Source: Escherichia coli (lineage in GTDB: Bacteria; Pseudomonadota; Gammaproteobacteria; Enterobacterales; Enterobacteriaceae). From it: a stretch of DNA of 60,030 nucleotides. The stretch lies in NCBI RefSeq assembly GCF_003334405.1, contig NZ_QOWM01000020.1. One strand, 5' to 3'. Position numbers and translations under genes: made by a program. Below the pieces are notes generated by a model, which was not told the DNA's origin, searched no databases, and saw nothing but the letters and a program-made list of their open reading frames with translations. Positions 16,391 through 22,973 of the stretch are shown one piece after another (positions within the stretch are counted from its first letter, which is position 1; each line of letters starts with the position of its first letter).

Positions 16391-16439
16391 CCCTTACCTT
16401 TAAAGCGGATGCGATTTATATCGCATAAGAGTGCAGTAC

Positions 16440-17413: not shown

Positions 17414-18649
17414 TTATTTCTGCCAGGCAAGTTGATAAAGCATGAGTGCCAACGTTTTGACCCCTTCGGCAAGGTCGGTAATATTGGTGCGTTCCGCCGG
17501 GTTATGGCTGATCCCGTTGATGCTGGGGATAAAAATCATGCAGGTTGGTACGCGAGGCGCGAAAATTTGCGCGTCGTGCCCGGCACCACTGTGCATCACC
17601 CGGTAATTCAGTTTTTCTCTTTCACACAATTCTGTCAGGGTGGCGACCAGCTCCTTATTCATCGGCACGGGTTCTTCGTCCATCCATAAATCGATATCAA
17701 TACCAATGTCCATTTCATCGCAAATCGCCCGCATGTCGTTTTCTAACTGTTGGGTGAAATCGCGCAGCACGGCAGCGTCGGTATGACGACAATCAATGGT
17801 GAACGTGGTTTTACCCGGCACCACATTTACCGTATTCGGGCGCGGCTCTACTTTGCCAAAGGTCAGAACCAGCGGATCGCCCATCCTTTTCGCTTTTTCG
17901 ACCGACTGATGGCAAATGCGACTGAAAGCGTAAACTGTATCACGACGATAACCCATCGGCGTGGTGCCTGCATGGTTTGATTCGCCGTTCAGCGTTACCG
18001 TATAACGACGCTGCCCGACAATTGCATTCACCACGCCAATTGATTGCCCATTACTTTCCAGCACACAGCCCTGTTCAATATGCAGTTCAACAAAGGCTTT
18101 AATATCCTGACGCGGAGTTAGTGGGGCGTTCGGAAGAGTAAATCCGCAAGCCTTCATCGCATCGACAAAACTATTTCCTTTGGCATCACAGATATTCCGC
18201 ACGTCGTCAGGATTCGCCAGCCCAAAAATATTTTTACTGCCCCAGAAGACATACGGGAAGCGGCTGCCTTCTTCTTCTGCCATCGCCACCACTTCGACCG
18301 TACGTAGCGGCGCGCCGTATTGCGTTTTCAGCCAGTCAATTGCCAGCCACGCCGCCAGCGCGCCGAATTGCCCGTCAAGGTTACCGCCGTTAACCACGGT
18401 ATCGATATGCGAACCGCTCAGAACCACTTCCTGTGGATATTCGGTGCCATTCAGGCGACCGTATAAATTCCCCACTTCATCGAAACGTGTTTCCAGCCCG
18501 CTTGCTGCCATTCTTTTTTTAAATTGCTGCTGGGTTTCCAGCCATTCCGGCGAATAAAGTAAACGGGTCATCCCACCCGCTGGGTCAGCGCCAAAAGAGG
18601 AAAGCCAGGGCAGCGTTTCTTCTATAGCTTGACGGAAATGTGTAATCAT
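17414..18649 (-). CDS. allC: Allantoate amidohydrolase (M20 peptidase family)
   Basis: ~411 aa from MITHFRQAIE. Confidence 0.9.
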   Translation of the reverse strand: MITHFRQAIEETLPWLSSFGADPAGGMTRLLYSPEWLETQQQFKKRMAASGLETRFDEVGNLYGRLNGTEYPQEVVLSGSHIDTVVNGGNLDGQFGALAAWLAIDWLKTQYGAPLRTVEVVAMAEEEGSRFPYVFWGSKNIFGLANPDDVRNICDAKGNSFVDAMKACGFTLPNAPLTPRQDIKAFVELHIEQGCVLESNGQSIGVVNAIVGQRRYTVTLNGESNHAGTTPMGYRRDTVYAFSRICHQSVEKAKRMGDPLVLTFGKVEPRPNTVNVVPGKTTFTIDCRHTDAAVLRDFTQQLENDMRAICDEMDIGIDIDLWMDEEPVPMNKELVATLTELCEREKLNYRVMHSGAGHDAQIFAPRVPTCMIFIPSINGISHNPAERTNITDLAEGVKTLALMLYQLAWQK

Positions 18650-18670
18650 AAGAAAGTCCTGTCTCAATAA

Positions 18671-19720
18671 TTATTGCGCAAAGGGATTTTTCGTTTCGTA
18701 TGACGTGTTATAAAGCGCGTCGGAAATTAAATACTGGTAAATATCATCAACAATTTCGATGCCTTCGACGGCGGCTTTGCGTTGTTTAATATCCTGATCC
18801 TGTCCGGGATAATAAACCTGATTAAAACCGGGCGCGGGGGTAATGGCATTTAATTCGCGCATGGTCTGGCTAAGATGTTGACGGAATAATTCGCTGGAGG
18901 AGAAAAAGTTCGGATTAATAACTATATGTAATTGCCCCAAATTACGCCCTGCGTGTAAATCGTCATACATCGAACTAACCTGTCGCCCGAACGGTAAGCC
19001 GAGTAAGACGCCTGAGAGGACGTCAATCATCATCATCAGGCCATACCCTTTTGGCCCGGCGGCGGGGAGCAGAGCATGTACCGCGAACGGATCGGTTGTT
19101 GGTACACCGTTTTTATCGACCGCCCAGGTATCCGGGATAGACATATTACGCGAGCGGGCGTCGAGCACTTTTCCCCATGCCTGTACGGTAGTCGCCATAT
19201 CAAAGGTAAGGATCTCGTCGCCTTCTCCCGGCGCGGCAAAGGCCAGGGGGTTAGTACCGTAGTAAATTTCCGCGCCGCCAAACGGCACCACCATTGGATC
19301 GGACTGGCACATCGAAATGCCAATGAATCCGGCGCGGGCTGCCTGCTGCACAAAATAAGAGATTGCGCCGCTGTGACCCATCCGGCTGATACCGACCACC
19401 GCAACGCCATTTTGCTGGGCGGTTTTGATGGCATGTTCCATACCCATTTTCGCCGCGACCTGTCCGGCGGCATTGTCGGCATGTAAAATTGCCGAGCACG
19501 GCCCGGTTTCCTCAAGACGAAACTCCGGTTCGCGGTTGGTGCCGCCTTTTGAAATGCGTTCCGCGTAGTATTCCACGCGCACCGCGCCATGAGAGTGGAT
19601 CCCTCTGGCATCGGCGTAAACCAATACTTCAGCCACGGTTGCAGCGTGCTCACGTTTTAACCCAGCCTGGCAGAGTTTATTCTCAATTAGCTGGTGGAGT
19701 GTTTCCCGACTGATTTTCAT
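18671..19720 (-). CDS. allD: Ureidoglycolate dehydrogenase
   Basis: 349 aa; synteny. Confidence 0.9.
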   Translation of the reverse strand: MKISRETLHQLIENKLCQAGLKREHAATVAEVLVYADARGIHSHGAVRVEYYAERISKGGTNREPEFRLEETGPCSAILHADNAAGQVAAKMGMEHAIKTAQQNGVAVVGISRMGHSGAISYFVQQAARAGFIGISMCQSDPMVVPFGGAEIYYGTNPLAFAAPGEGDEILTFDMATTVQAWGKVLDARSRNMSIPDTWAVDKNGVPTTDPFAVHALLPAAGPKGYGLMMMIDVLSGVLLGLPFGRQVSSMYDDLHAGRNLGQLHIVINPNFFSSSELFRQHLSQTMRELNAITPAPGFNQVYYPGQDQDIKQRKAAVEGIEIVDDIYQYLISDALYNTSYETKNPFAQ

Positions 19721-20036
19721 CTGTCTTCCTTTTTAACGACGGTGTGAAGCATGACTGCAATTAACATACAGGGAAAATATCTGGATTATGTGATCCAGAC
19801 AGGCAAGAAAATATAGTTAGAATTTATTTGATAATCCGCTCACTTTTAACCTGATTTTTAAAACAACCACGCTTATTAAAAAATAATGAGTAATAGCCTG
19901 GCGGTTATTTGAATTCTTTTGTTAATAATTCCTGTGTGATATTCATCACCTTATTTACTCGTTGTCATCGATACCGTAATCGCCACATTAACACTGCTCG
20001 TGCAATTGCCATGGGTGCAATTTTTAAGGAGTTGTT

Positions 20037-21704
20037 ATGATCCACGCCTTTATTAAAAAAGGGTGTTTTCAGGATTCGGTCAGTTTAATGATTATTTCAC
20101 GAAAACTCAGCGAATCAGAAAATGTTGATGATGTTTCCGTAATGATGGGTACGCCCGCCAATAAAGCGTTATTAGATACCACAGGTTTCTGGCATGACGA
20201 TTTTAATAACGCCACGCCGAACGATATTTGCGTGGCAATTCGTAGCGAAGCGGCGGATGCGGGGATCGCGCAGGCGATTATGCAGCAGCTTGAAGAGGCG
20301 CTAAAACAACTGGCGCAGGGGTCAGGCAGCAGCCAGGCGTTGACGCAGGTGCGTCGCTGGGACAGTGCCTGTCAGAAATTACCCGACGCCAGTCTGGCGC
20401 TGATTTCAGTGGCTGGCGAGTATGCGGCGGAGCTGGCGAACCAGGCGCTGGATCGCAACCTCAACGTGATGATGTTCTCCGATAACGTCACGCTGGAAGA
20501 TGAAATCCAACTTAAAAGCCGCGCGCGGGAAAAAGGCTTGCTGGTGATGGGGCCGGACTGCGGTACGTCGATGATTGCCGGCACGCCGCTGGCTTTTGCT
20601 AACGTGATGCCGGAAGGCAATATTGGCGTCATTGGCGCTTCCGGTACCGGGATTCAGGAACTGTGTTCGCAGATTGCGCTGGCAGGGGAGGGAATTACTC
20701 ACGCGATTGGCCTTGGCGGGCGCGACCTCAGCCGTGAAGTGGGCGGCATCAGTGCGCTGACGGCGCTGGAAATGCTCAGTGCAGACGAGAAAAGCGAAGT
20801 GCTGGCATTTGTTTCAAAACCGCCTGCCGAAGCTGTGCGTCTGAAAATTGTTAATGCCATGAAAGCAACCGGCAAACCGACGGTGGCGCTGTTTTTAGGT
20901 TATACCCCGGCGGTGGCCCGCGACGAGAATGTCTGGTTTGCCTCCTCGCTGGATGAGGCCGCACGCCTGGCTTGCCTGCTTTCACGCGTTACGGCGCGAC
21001 GTAACGCGATAACGCCTGCCAGCAGCGGATTTATTTGCGGTTTGTATACCGGCGGTACCCTGGCTGCCGAAGCGGCGGGATTACTTGCTGGACACCTTGG
21101 CGTGGAAGCCGACGATACCCATCATCACGGCATGATGCTCGACGCCGATGGTCACCAGATTATTGACCTCGGCGATGATTTCTACACCGTCGGGCGTCCC
21201 CATCCGATGATCGACCCAGCCTTACGCAATCAGTTAATTGCCGATCTCGGCGCTAAACCGCAAGTGCGCGTATTGCTGCTTGATGTCGTGATTGGCTTCG
21301 GTGCGACCGCCGATCCTGCCGCCTCGCTGGTAAGCGCCTGGCAAAAAGCCTGTGCTGCGCGTTCAGACAATCAACCACTGTATGCCATTGCCACGGTGAC
21401 AGGCACTGAACGTGACCCGCAATGCCGCTCGCAGCAAATCGCCACGCTGGAAGATGCGGGGATCGCGGTAGTGAGTTCGCTGCCGGAAGCCACCTTGCTG
21501 GCGGCGGCACTGATTCGTCCGCTTTCGCCTGCCACTCAGCAACACACACCGTCATTACTGGAAAACGTCGCCGTGATTAACATCGGATTACGCAGCTTTG
21601 CGCTGGAGCTACAAAGCGCCAGCAAACCGGTTGTGCATTACCAATGGTCGCCAGTCGCCGGCGGCAATAAAAAACTGGCTCGTTTATTAGAACGTTTGCA
21701 ATAA
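20037..21704 (+). CDS. fdrA: FdrA, succinyl-CoA-synthetase-alpha-like/CoA-binding protein; proposed subunit of oxamate carbamoyltransferase
   Basis: 555 aa; synteny with ylbE/ylbF/ybcF. Confidence 0.85.
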   Translation: MIHAFIKKGCFQDSVSLMIISRKLSESENVDDVSVMMGTPANKALLDTTGFWHDDFNNATPNDICVAIRSEAADAGIAQAIMQQLEEALKQLAQGSGSSQALTQVRRWDSACQKLPDASLALISVAGEYAAELANQALDRNLNVMMFSDNVTLEDEIQLKSRAREKGLLVMGPDCGTSMIAGTPLAFANVMPEGNIGVIGASGTGIQELCSQIALAGEGITHAIGLGGRDLSREVGGISALTALEMLSADEKSEVLAFVSKPPAEAVRLKIVNAMKATGKPTVALFLGYTPAVARDENVWFASSLDEAARLACLLSRVTARRNAITPASSGFICGLYTGGTLAAEAAGLLAGHLGVEADDTHHHGMMLDADGHQIIDLGDDFYTVGRPHPMIDPALRNQLIADLGAKPQVRVLLLDVVIGFGATADPAASLVSAWQKACAARSDNQPLYAIATVTGTERDPQCRSQQIATLEDAGIAVVSSLPEATLLAAALIRPLSPATQQHTPSLLENVAVINIGLRSFALELQSASKPVVHYQWSPVAGGNKKLARLLERLQ

Positions 21705-21713
21705 GGGGTTCCC

Positions 21714-22973
21714 ATGTTTACATCAGTGGCGCAAGCCAATGCTGCGGTTATCGAACAAATTCGTCGCGCTCGTCCACACTGGCTGGATGTGCAACCGGCT
21801 TCTTCACTTATCAGCGAACTAAACCAGGGCAAAACACTGCTTCACGCCGGGCCGCCAATGCGCTGGCAGGAGATGACCGGACCTATGAAAGGGGCGTGCG
21901 TGGGCGCATGTCTGTTCGAAGGTTGGGCGAAAGATGAAGCGCAGGCGCTGGCAATACTGGAGCAGGGGGAAGTGAACTTCATTCCTTGTCACCATGTGAA
22001 TGCCGTCGGGCCAATGGGCGGTATTACTTCTGCCAGTATGCCGATGCTGGTGGTCGAGAACGTGACCGACGGCAACCGGGCGTACTGCAACCTCAACGAA
22101 GGTATCGGCAAAGTGATGCGTTTTGGCGCTTATGGCGAAGATGTCCTGACTCGCCATCGCTGGATGCGCGATGTGTTAATGCCAGTATTAAGCGCGGCGC
22201 TGGGGCGCATGGAGCACGGTATCGATCTCACGGCGATGATGGCGCAGGGCATTACCATGGGCGATGAGTTCCATCAACGCAATATTGCTTCCTCAGCACT
22301 GTTAATGCGTACGCTGGCCCCACAAATTGCTCGCCTCGATCATGATAAACAGCACATTGCGGAAGTGATGGATTTCCTCAGCGTGACCGATCAGTTCTTC
22401 CTCAACCTCGCGATGGCCTACTGCAAGGCGGCGATGGATGCTGGCGCGATGATCCGCGCAGGCAGCATCGTTACGGCTATGACCCGCAACGGCAATATGT
22501 TCGGGATTCGGGTAAGCGGGCTGGGTGAACGCTGGTTTACTGCGCCTGTAAACACTCCGCAAGGTCTGTTTTTCACCGGCTTCTCGCAGGAGCAGGCGAA
22601 CCCGGATATGGGCGATAGCGCGATTACCGAAACCTTTGGTATCGGAGGTGCGGCAATGATCGCAGCGCCTGGCGTAACGCGCTTTGTCGGTGCGGGTGGC
22701 ATGGAAGCGGCCAGGGCGGTATCTGAAGAGATGGCGGAAATTTACCTTGAACGCAATATGCAGTTGCAGATCCCAAGCTGGGATTTTCAGGGCGCCTGCC
22801 TGGGACTGGACATTCGTCGCGTGGTAGAAACCGGTATTACGCCACTCATCAATACCGGTATCGCCCATAAAGAGGCGGGGATCGGGCAGATTGGCGCAGG
22901 CACCGTGCGGGCACCGCTGGCGTGTTTTGAACAGGCGCTGGAAGCACTGGCTGAAAGCATGGGGATTGGTTGA
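21714..22973 (+). CDS. ylbE: DUF1116-family protein, uninterrupted reading frame
   Basis: 419-aa continuous ORF; I recall it as frameshifted in MG1655. Confidence 0.85.

What the first reader, a model, noticed from the sequence alone, without database searches (positions are those of the whole stretch)
19771..19788. 18-bp palindrome in the allD-fdrA divergent control region
CTGGAT-tatgtg-ATCCAG has exactly inverted 6-bp arms and lies between divergent allD and fdrA. It is a candidate binding site for a dimeric regulator; AllS is the obvious one but that is unverified.
Basis: inference. Interest (0 to 1): 0.3.

Follow-up and report, generated by a model that had tools for sequence, protein, structure and literature searches.

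The report
Chance palindrome over a conserved CRP-like half-site
The palindrome upstream of the E. coli allantoin gene allD is real, but only its right half is conserved in other bacteria, and that half looks like one arm of a binding site for the global sugar-sensing regulator CRP at the allD promoter, not a site for the local regulator AllS.

Summary
The 18-bp palindrome exists, but at 19781-19798, 10 bp right of the stated coordinates. It extends to 7-nt arms (19780-19799). It lies in the 316-bp allD-fdrA(allF) spacer of E. coli. A palindrome this good appears in 27% (7-nt arms) or 72% (6-nt arms) of shuffles of the spacer.

Across 35 orthologous Enterobacterales loci, the two arms are complementary only in Escherichia (1-4 of 7 positions elsewhere). 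The conserved element is asymmetric: the invariant heptamer TGTGATC (19789-19795), with an A/T flank and a YRGA tail. This matches the first 14-15 bases of the CRP consensus. A conserved -10-like TAnnnT hexamer lies exactly 20 nt further towards allD, which is class II geometry at about -41.

The allF side has the mirror arrangement, with a full TGTGA-N6-TCAC site (19935-19950) that a 2026 preprint reports as an in-vitro CRP site (Kd 9.8 nM). The published AllS-bound fragment is 19834-19893 and does not include the palindrome.

Verdict: the symmetry is most likely an Escherichia-specific coincidence lying over a probable CRP-type activator half-site. AllS binding here is not supported. The allD start site and CRP binding at this half-site are inferred, not shown. 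This is an ordinary finding of low to moderate interest.

The parts
19780..19799 (.). The palindrome: TCTGGAT-tatgtg-ATCCAGA with 7-nt arms. The centre, 19789.5, is about -33.5 from the inferred allD start site.
   Evidence: Chance expectation. Arms complementary only in Escherichia.
19780..19786 (.). Left arm. It is not conserved outside Escherichia and falls in the promoter spacer at about -24 to -30.
   Evidence: Mean information 0.58 bit across 34 distinct orthologues; alignment.
19789..19795 (.). Invariant heptamer TGTGATC (GATCACA on the allD strand). It is the promoter-proximal half of a CRP-type site.
   Evidence: Invariant in the unanchored 17-species MAFFT alignment. Present upstream of allD in all 35 divergent allD-fdrA loci, and also in Proteus, Rahnella, Budvicia diplopodorum and Photobacterium; 2 chance-level occurrences among roughly 30 Firmicutes control loci. 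The half-site scores 12.2 bits, and only 2 positions in the window score as well.
19787..19806 (.). 20-bp CRP-type frame: taTGTGAtccagaCAGGCaa, axis 19796.5. The distal pentamer CAGGC matches TCACA at 0 of 5 positions in E. coli.
   Evidence: CRP matrix score is 1.25 bits in E. coli (rank 228 of 60,011). The median over orthologues is 7.4 bits, range -1.1 to 13.8.
19763..19768 (-). Inferred allD -10 hexamer TATGTT. The implied start site is about 19755-19756 and has not been measured.
   Evidence: A TAnnnT hexamer lies exactly 20 nt downstream of TCACA in 33 of 35 loci, 19 nt in one and absent in one. The T1, A2, T3 and T6 positions are invariant in the 17-species alignment.
19935..19950 (.). 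Full CRP site TGTGAtattcaTCACC on the allF side, axis 19942.5, 146 bp from the allD-side axis.
   Evidence: Highest CRP matrix score in the window, 18.5 bits. Listed as a novel in-vitro CRP site, NC_000913.3 centre 546586, Kd 9.8 nM, 'allD / fdrA', in PMC12871828 Table 1. GTGA-N6-TCAC is present in 32 of 35 loci.
19972..19977 (+). Inferred allF -10 hexamer TACCGT. The implied start site is about 19984.
   Evidence: A TAnnnT hexamer lies 21 nt (20 nt in two loci) downstream of TCAC in every locus that has the site.
19834..19893 (.). Published AllS EMSA fragment (allFp -203/-144), with a predicted AllS motif centre near 19856. It contains the dyad TTTTAA-N8-TTAAAA at 19844-19863.
   Evidence: PMC12535856. 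Dyad found. Coordinates converted from the allF ATG at 20037.
19811..19836 (.). The most conserved block of the spacer, ATAGTTAGAATTTATTTGATAATC, with an LTTR-like ATA-N9-TAT at 19811-19825. It may be a promoter-proximal AllS contact.
   Evidence: Alignment. PRODORIC called OxyR, which is also an LTTR, at -224 (about 19813) in PMC12535856.
18671..19720 (-). allD, ureidoglycolate dehydrogenase, first gene of allDCE.
20037..21704 (+). fdrA, also called allF, first gene of allFGHK.
   Evidence: PMC12535856.

Best explanation
The palindromic symmetry is a lineage-specific coincidence. The functional element under it is asymmetric: a conserved CRP-type half-site, (A/T)3-TGTGATC-YRGA at 19785-19799. 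It forms the promoter-proximal half of an activator site whose axis (19796.5) lies about 41 bp upstream of the allD start, inferred at about 19755-19756 from the -10 hexamer TATGTT at 19768-19763. I propose that a cAMP-CRP dimer binds there weakly through one good half-site. It would contact RNA polymerase as at class II promoters and act together with AllS bound further upstream (19834-19893). The allF promoter on the other side of the spacer mirrors this layout with a full CRP site at about -41.5. The palindrome's left arm lies in the unconstrained spacer between the activator site and the -10. Shown here: the sequence, the conservation pattern, the fixed spacing, and the match to the CRP consensus. 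Taken from the literature: in-vitro CRP binding at the allF-side site, AllS binding to 19834-19893, and CRP binding at the allS promoter in K. pneumoniae. Inferred: the allD start site, CRP occupancy of the allD-side half-site, and activation.
For: 1. TGTGATC is invariant in an unanchored alignment of 17 Enterobacteriaceae. It is present at the same place in all 35 divergent allD-fdrA loci from five families, and in Proteus, Rahnella and Photobacterium. Only 2 chance-level occurrences were seen among roughly 30 Firmicutes loci.
2. The orthologue consensus AAWWTGTGATCYRGAT matches positions 1-15 of the CRP consensus AAATGTGATCTAGATCACATTT (consensus as quoted in PMC5521740).
3. A TAnnnT hexamer lies exactly 20 nt downstream in 33 of 35 loci, although the intervening sequence is unconserved between families.
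4. The allF side has the same layout with a full site (21 nt to TAnnnT). That site has the top CRP matrix score in the window (18.5 bits) and a reported in-vitro CRP Kd of 9.8 nM (PMC12871828).
5. The same preprint states that the weakest of its 1,217 CRP sites rely mainly on a single half-site. Its table includes strong sites sharing TGTGAtccag with poor second halves, namely galS TCGTT and yagA/yagE TTAAA.
6. CRP-cAMP is reported to bind the allS promoter in K. pneumoniae (Xue 2016, as cited in PMC5521740).
7. The left arm is unconserved, and arm complementarity is 1-4/7 outside Escherichia.
Against: - The distal pentamer is 0/5 in E. coli, and the full-site matrix score is only 1.25 bits, rank 228 of 60,011.
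- The site is not among the published sites with Kd below 10 nM. The full site list was not available to me.
- The invariance of the TC after TGTGA across 34 distinct sequences is stronger than CRP usually demands; the allF-side site varies at these positions.
- The allD start site was not available to me, because Rintoul 2002 and Cusa 1999 are not held. An alternative -10, CATAAT at 19790-19785 inside the palindrome, cannot be formally excluded.
- allD expression is described as strictly anaerobic and AllS-dependent (PMC12535856). I found no report of crp dependence in E. coli.
- The matrix was built from 39 high-affinity sites only, so it penalises half-site-type sites.
Confidence: 0.5

Rival explanations
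1. The right arm and TGTGATC are the promoter-proximal activation site of an AllS tetramer, so the first reader would be half right. The tetramer's primary recognition site would lie upstream, either the 19844-19863 dyad or the conserved LTTR-like box at 19811-19825. One dimer would reach down to about -40.
For: AllS is required for allD and allF expression and binds this spacer (PMC12535856). A conserved ATA-N9-TAT box at 19811-19825 is centred about 21 bp, or two helical turns, from 19796.5. LysR-type tetramers typically cover 50-60 bp (established knowledge of the family).
Against: The AllS-shifted fragment 19834-19893 excludes both the box and the palindrome. TGTGATC has no similarity to either candidate AllS recognition site. 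It is more conserved than they are, the reverse of what is usual for LysR activation sites. The same TGTGA motif recurs as a full CRP palindrome at the allF promoter, where purified CRP binds. The even spacing is incompatible with a T-N11-A box.
Confidence: 0.12
2. A different factor recognises the invariant GATCACA heptamer. Candidates are the still-unidentified regulator that makes allD strictly anaerobic (FNR-like or ArcA-like), or a factor sensitive to Dam methylation of the embedded GATC.
For: The heptamer is more tightly conserved than a CRP half-site needs to be. The regulator responsible for anaerobic control of allDp is stated to be unknown (PMC12535856). GTGAT-N4-AT partly matches the FNR consensus TTGAT-N4-ATCAA on the same axis. 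In several genera a second TTGAT/TTGGT/TGGAT lies 11 bp downstream, as expected for direct-repeat response regulators.
Against: The G in GTGAT is the base that distinguishes CRP sites from FNR sites (established knowledge). No FNR site was predicted by PRODORIC. The second repeat is absent in E. coli (CAGGC). The ArcA-like motifs are elsewhere, at 19874-19923.
Confidence: 0.15
3. The palindrome is a genuine Escherichia-specific operator. A dimeric protein would bind both arms over the -35 region (centre about -33.5) and repress allD, for example under aerobic conditions.
For: A perfect 7+7 palindrome lies exactly over the -24 to -43 region of the inferred promoter. At least three Escherichia-lineage substitutions relative to Citrobacter all increase complementarity. 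It is retained in the E. coli strains sampled.
Against: It is statistically unremarkable. It is already weakened in E. whittamii (6/7) and broken in E. coli 2017.01.04CC. No second copy exists in the 60-kb window, which contains the whole allantoin cluster. I know of no regulator with this motif.
Confidence: 0.08
4. The palindrome acts as an RNA hairpin on the allD strand, serving as a terminator, attenuator or leader structure. The hairpin would be UCUGGAU-CACAUA-AUCCAGA followed by UAUUUU.
For: The consensus scan flags it as terminator-like on the - strand. The predicted fold is -10.9 kcal/mol with z = -3.3.
Against: It lies upstream of the inferred allD start, so it would not be transcribed. 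The pairing is not conserved outside Escherichia. There are only 3 G-C pairs and a short interrupted U run. There is no Rfam match. No upstream gene is transcribed in this direction.
Confidence: 0.03

Closest known systems
Class II CRP-dependent promoters (galP1 and melR types: CRP centred near -41.5 and overlapping the -35 region)
   Same: A consensus TGTGA pentamer with an A/T flank and a TCTAGA-like spacer. The proximal pentamer is 20 nt from a conserved TAnnnT -10-like hexamer. There is no recognisable -35 hexamer. The geometry is fixed across 33 of 35 orthologues.
   Different: Only one half-site is present; the distal pentamer is 0/5 in E. coli. The spacing is 20 nt rather than 21, giving an axis at -40.5 to -41.5. 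The start site, CRP binding and crp dependence have not been measured.
The allD/fdrA CRP site found by Footprint-seq (Wang, Stringer and Wade 2026 preprint, PMC12871828; NC_000913.3 centre 546586, Kd 9.8 nM)
   Same: It lies in the same spacer, has the same TGTGAT motif and the same distance to a -10-like hexamer, and is conserved in the same set of species.
   Different: It is a separate site at 19935-19950, 146 bp away on the allF side, and it is a full 9/10 palindrome.
AllS (LysR-type) site of the allD/allF control region (Rintoul 2002; Kim and Kim 2025, PMC12535856)
   Same: Same spacer and the same target operons. AllS is required for expression of both operons.
   Different: The bound fragment is 19834-19893 with a motif centre near 19856, 35-66 bp from the palindrome. 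The palindrome's even spacing does not fit a T-N11-A box, and its dyad is not conserved.
CRP control of allS in Klebsiella pneumoniae (Xue et al. 2016, as cited in PMC5521740)
   Same: It links cAMP-CRP to the allantoin regulon in a species whose allD promoter carries the same TGTGATC element (K. grimontii, K. oxytoca and K. spallanzanii loci).
   Different: It concerns a different promoter (allS) in a different organism. I know it only from a citation and did not read the paper.

Membership tests
CRP binding site / class II CRP-dependent promoter | Two inverted TGTGA/TCACA pentamers separated by 6 bp | tested here: not met
   E. coli has TGTGA-tccaga-CAGGC, which is 5/5 plus 0/5. The matrix score is 1.25 bits against 9.6-21.9 for the 39 training sites. 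Orthologues score better (median 7.4 bits, up to 13.8) but mostly retain only the T of the second pentamer.
CRP binding site / class II CRP-dependent promoter | Consensus half-site with an A/T-rich flank and a TCTAGA-like spacer | tested here: met
   The orthologue consensus AAWWTGTGATCYRGAT matches AAATGTGATCTAGAT. The half-site scores 12.2 bits, and only 2 positions in the 60-kb window on both strands score as well.
CRP binding site / class II CRP-dependent promoter | Site axis about 41.5 bp upstream of the start site, with about 21 nt between the proximal pentamer and the -10 hexamer | tested here: inconclusive
   A conserved TAnnnT hexamer lies 20 nt downstream in 33 of 35 loci, giving an axis at -40.5 to -41.5. 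The start site is inferred, because the papers that mapped it are not held.
CRP binding site / class II CRP-dependent promoter | Binding by cAMP-CRP and crp-dependent transcription | not testable with these tools
   Published in-vitro binding exists only for the allF-side site (PMC12871828). The supplement listing all 1,217 sites is not held. I found no crp-dependence data for E. coli allD.
LysR-type regulator (AllS) binding site | Interrupted dyad containing T-N11-A, centred on a base pair | tested here: not met
   The palindrome has a 6-nt spacer and is centred between base pairs, so its symmetric T...A pairs are T-N6-A and T-N14-A. LTTR-like boxes are found elsewhere in the spacer: ATA-N9-TAT at 19811-19825 and TTTTAA-N8-TTAAAA at 19844-19863.
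LysR-type regulator (AllS) binding site | Bound by AllS | not testable with these tools
   The published EMSA-positive fragment is 19834-19893 and excludes the palindrome (PMC12535856). No experiment has tested a fragment covering 19780-19799.
LysR-type regulator (AllS) binding site | Dyad conserved in orthologous control regions | tested here: not met
   Arm complementarity is 1-4/7 in every genus other than Escherichia.
Palindromic operator of a dimeric regulator (generic) | Inverted repeat better than chance, with both arms under selection | tested here: not met
   The repeat is perfect (7+7) but occurs in 27% of shuffles. Mean information is 0.58 bit for the left arm against 1.38 bits for the right arm.
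Intrinsic terminator / leader hairpin | Stable G+C-rich stem followed by a U run, lying within a transcript, with pairing conserved | tested here: not met
   The site is flagged by the scan and folds at -10.9 kcal/mol. However, it has only 3 G-C pairs, lies upstream of the inferred start, the pairing is not conserved and there is no Rfam match.

The most novel reading that the evidence does not exclude
The invariant GATCACA heptamer, conserved more tightly than a CRP half-site requires and carrying a Dam GATC, is not a CRP site. Instead it is the recognition element of the still-unidentified factor that restricts allD expression to anaerobiosis. In Escherichia, the acquired left arm would turn it into a symmetric operator for that factor.
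Probability: 0.1. Interest if true: 0.55.

Novelty: new member of a known kind. Interest (0 to 1): 0.22.

Why it matters
If the reading is right, both operons of the oxamate branch of allantoin breakdown (allDCE and allFGHK) start from mirror-image class II promoters. These would need cAMP-CRP in addition to AllS, and for allF also ArcA. That would place anaerobic purine-nitrogen scavenging under carbon-status control across Enterobacterales.

It would also add a well-conserved example of a promoter that works with a single CRP half-site. The published ArcA band-shift fragment also contains a high-affinity CRP site, which should be borne in mind when interpreting that experiment.

This is an incremental refinement of a well-studied regulon, not a new kind of system.

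Tried and rejected
1. AllS site. Rejected as the main reading. The published AllS fragment is 35 bp away, the dyad is not conserved, and the spacing does not fit T-N11-A.

2. Statistical significance of the palindrome. It is not significant. The apparent enrichment of the relaxed pattern is explained by matches inside ORFs.

3. RNA hairpin or terminator. Rejected because the pairing is not conserved, the site lies upstream of the inferred start, and there is no Rfam match.

4. Structured leaders of allD and allF. The fold z-scores are 0.61 and 0.04, so there is nothing there.

5. Sigma-54 promoter. By eye, neither strand of the palindrome has a GG-N10-GC arrangement.

6. A sigma-70 promoter using ATCACA as the -35 hexamer. 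The spacer to the -10 would be about 21 nt, which is too long.

7. An alternative -10, CATAAT (19790-19785), inside the palindrome. It is not formally excluded. It is disfavoured because the fixed 20-nt link between GATCACA and a downstream TAnnnT holds even where the intervening sequence has diverged completely. The simple promoter scan found no - strand sigma-70 promoter at all, which is consistent with an activator-dependent promoter.

8. SoxS and OxyR, predicted by PRODORIC at -237 and -224. The authors found only about 30% increases in the deletion mutants and judged them indirect.

9. Obtaining the mapped allD start site. Rintoul 2002 and Cusa 1999 are not held, and a search for 'allDp' found nothing further.

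10. The Footprint-seq and Kim and Kim supplements are not held.

Full report
**Observation**

The window is an E. coli chromosome segment. Positions 18600-21800 are 100% identical to several complete genomes that annotate allC, allD, fdrA and ylbE there. allD is at 18671-19720 on the - strand, and fdrA (renamed allF) is at 20037-21704 on the + strand. The spacer between them is 19721-20036, 316 bp.

The sequence CTGGATTATGTGATCCAG occurs once, at 19781-19798. The inverted repeat extends by one base to 7-nt arms, TCTGGAT/ATCCAGA, at 19780-19799. The sequence is therefore real and lies between the two divergent genes.

It is not statistically remarkable:
- In 500 dinucleotide-preserving shuffles of the spacer, a 6-nt-arm palindrome with a 0-12 nt spacer appears in 72% and a 7-nt-arm one in 27%.
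- The window contains 259 and 82 such palindromes.
- The relaxed pattern with up to 2 mismatches gave 7 matches against 1.56 expected. The other six are all imperfect and all lie inside long ORFs. I attribute this to codon bias.

**What is already published for this spacer**

Kim and Kim 2025 (PMC12535856) showed that allF'-lacZ needs AllS and ArcA.
- A 60-bp fragment from -203 to -144 relative to the allF ATG is shifted by an AllS-containing lysate. The predicted AllS motif is centred at -181.
- A fragment from -142 to -83 is shifted by a phosphorylated ArcA lysate.
- With the ATG at 20037, these fragments are window 19834-19893 (motif near 19856) and 19895-19954.
- The palindrome is at -256 to -239, which is 35 bp outside the AllS fragment.
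- PRODORIC predictions for SoxS (-237) and OxyR (-224) fall next to the palindrome, but the deletion mutants changed expression only slightly and the authors judged the effects indirect.
- The authors state that the factor making allDp anaerobic is unknown.

The papers that mapped the allD promoter, Rintoul 2002 and Cusa 1999, are not held. I therefore have no measured allD start site.

**Comparative evidence**

A scan of one genome per species with AllD returned 80 loci. Of these, 34 have the divergent allD-fdrA arrangement. They span Enterobacteriaceae, Yersiniaceae, Erwiniaceae, Morganellaceae and Budviciaceae.

In an unanchored MAFFT alignment of 17 Enterobacteriaceae spacers, the left arm is not conserved even in Citrobacter (ATTGAT, TCTAAT) or Klebsiella (CTTAAA). 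In contrast, TGTGATC (19789-19795) is invariant. This heptamer consists of the last four spacer bases plus the first three bases of the right arm.

The heptamer is present upstream of allD in all 35 sequences, at 64-80 nt from the ATG except where insertions intervene. It is also found in Proteus mirabilis, P. hauseri, P. myxofaciens, Rahnella, Budvicia diplopodorum and Photobacterium. Among roughly 30 Firmicutes loci, which serve as a control, it occurs only twice, at chance level.

Anchored on the heptamer, arm complementarity is 7/7 in E. coli, 6/7 in E. whittamii and 1-4/7 in every other genus. Mean information is 0.58 bit for the left arm, 1.71 for the spacer and 1.38 for the right arm. 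The heptamer columns are invariant by construction in that table, but not.

Within E. coli the palindrome is mostly intact. One sampled strain has TGTGCTC instead.

**What the conserved element looks like**

The orthologue consensus is AAWWTGTGATCYRGAT. This matches positions 1-15 of the CRP consensus AAATGTGATCTAGATCACATTT. The second pentamer is not conserved; it reads CAGGC in E. coli and TTGGT, TGGAT or TGCGT elsewhere.

I built a CRP matrix from 39 in-vitro sites. With it:
- The 20-mer 19787-19806 scores only 1.25 bits (rank 228 of 60,011).
- The half-site alone scores 12.2 bits, and only two positions in the window do as well.
- The orthologous sites score a median of 7.4 bits, range -1.1 to 13.8.

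**Geometry**

On the allD strand, a TAnnnT hexamer follows GATCACA after exactly 20 nt in 33 of 35 loci; it is at 19 nt in one locus and absent in one. The hexamer is TATGTT in E. coli (19768-19763), TATTTT in Klebsiella, TACATT in Serratia, Erwinia, Providencia and Proteus, and TATTGT or TATGGT in Budviciaceae. The 20 nt in between are unrelated between families.

In the 17-species alignment, the conservation pattern of that hexamer is the signature of a -10 element: T1, A2, T3 and T6 are invariant while positions 4 and 5 vary. This implies a start near 19755-19756. The axis of the CRP-type frame (19796.5) then sits at -40.5 to -41.5, which is the class II position.

The simple sigma-70 scan finds no - strand promoter in the spacer. 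That is expected for an activator-dependent promoter with no -35 hexamer.

**The other side of the spacer**

At 19935-19950 there is a full site, TGTGAtattcaTCACC. It has the highest CRP matrix score in the window, 18.5 bits. The GTGA-N6-TCAC core is conserved in 32 of 35 loci, with a TAnnnT hexamer 21 nt downstream (TACCGT at 19972-19977). Its axis is typically 146 bp from the allD-side axis.

This site is listed as a novel in-vitro CRP site in a 2026 Footprint-seq preprint (PMC12871828, Table 1). The entry gives centre NC_000913.3 546586, Kd 9.8 nM and genes 'allD / fdrA'. The coordinate matches the window offset of +526,643 seen in a K-12-like genome.

The same preprint says the weakest of its 1,217 sites rely mainly on a single half-site. 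The full list is not held, so I cannot say whether the allD-side half-site was detected.

CRP-cAMP is also reported to bind the allS promoter in K. pneumoniae (Xue 2016, cited in PMC5521740).

**Most likely mechanism (confidence about 0.5)**

The palindrome is an Escherichia-specific coincidence. Its right half belongs to a conserved CRP-type half-site that forms the promoter-proximal part of a class II activator site for allDp. AllS acts from further upstream, and the allF promoter mirrors the arrangement. The left arm sits at about -24 to -30, in the unconstrained promoter spacer.
- Shown: the sequence, conservation, spacing and consensus match.
- From the literature: CRP binding at the allF-side site and AllS binding at 19834-19893.
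- Inferred: the start site, CRP occupancy at the half-site, and activation.

**Rival explanations**

- An AllS activation site reaching the right arm (0.12). A conserved LTTR-like ATA-N9-TAT box at 19811-19825 lies two helical turns away. However, the AllS-shifted fragment excludes it, and TGTGATC resembles neither candidate AllS box.
- Another factor recognising GATCACA (0.15). The TC is more constrained than CRP normally requires, the heptamer contains a Dam GATC, and the anaerobic regulator of allDp is unknown.
- A true Escherichia-specific operator over the -35 region (0.08).
- An RNA hairpin or terminator (0.03). The site is flagged and folds at -10.9 kcal/mol. However, it is not conserved, probably not transcribed, and has no Rfam match.

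**Comparison with known systems and novelty**

The element behaves like a class II CRP promoter site but fails the two-pentamer criterion, so I do not file it as a canonical CRP site. It fails the LTTR-box criteria: it has an even spacer and an unconserved dyad. The allF-side CRP site is already published. I found no description of the allD-side half-site or of the mirror-image architecture.

I rate it a new member of a known kind, of low to moderate interest. The specific first-stage idea, that the palindrome is an AllS operator, is not supported.

Noticed in passing
window 19895-19954: The 60-bp fragment used as the ArcA band-shift probe in Kim and Kim 2025 (-142/-83 from the allF ATG) contains the entire high-affinity CRP site 19935-19950. 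Crude lysates were used, so CRP could contribute to or interfere with that shift.
   Followed up: partly
window 19811-19836: The most conserved block of the spacer across 17 Enterobacteriaceae is ATAGTTAGAATTTATTTGATAATC, with an LTTR-like ATA-N9-TAT at 19811-19825. It lies almost wholly outside the published AllS EMSA fragment. PRODORIC called OxyR here. It may be a promoter-proximal AllS contact, centred about -62 from the inferred allD start.
   Followed up: partly
window 19836-19895: The region inside the AllS EMSA fragment is the most variable part of the spacer, both among E. coli strains and between genera. The TTTTAA-N8-TTAAAA dyad (19844-19863) is altered in strain E69 and absent in Klebsiella and Citrobacter.
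   Followed up: partly
window 19995-20022: The allF leader contains a strongly conserved TGCAATTGCCATGGGTGCAATT, with the dyad AATTGC-N7-GCAATT at 20004-20022 just before the Shine-Dalgarno sequence. It is flagged as terminator-like, but the RNA fold is no better than shuffles (z = 0.04). A DNA-level site seems more likely than an RNA structure.
   Followed up: partly
window 16408-16427: A near-perfect palindrome, GATGCGATTTATATCGCATA, lies between the convergent ends of glxK and allE. It has the third-best score on the CRP matrix (13.7 bits) but lacks the TGTGA core.
   Followed up: no
L083 (E. coli 2017.01.04CC), equivalent to window 19793: This strain carries an A-to-C change giving TGTGCTC, which breaks both the CRP-type pentamer and the palindrome. 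Its allD is annotated 3 nt shorter. It could serve as a natural test of the element.
   Followed up: no
L018 (K. spallanzanii), L027 (Serratia sp. Ag1), L033 (Pragia fontium) spacers: Insertions of about 30-125 bp separate the two CRP-type axes (271 bp in L018) or move TGTGATC away from the allD ATG (199 nt in L027, 104 nt in L033). In the L027 and L033 cases the GATCACA-N20-TAnnnT unit stays intact.
   Followed up: no
window 19757-19769, - strand: GTATGTTAATTGC overlaps the inferred allD -10 hexamer and start site. It contains TGTTAATTG, which resembles the ArcA direct-repeat element. If ArcA-P bound here it would be positioned to repress rather than activate.
   Followed up: no
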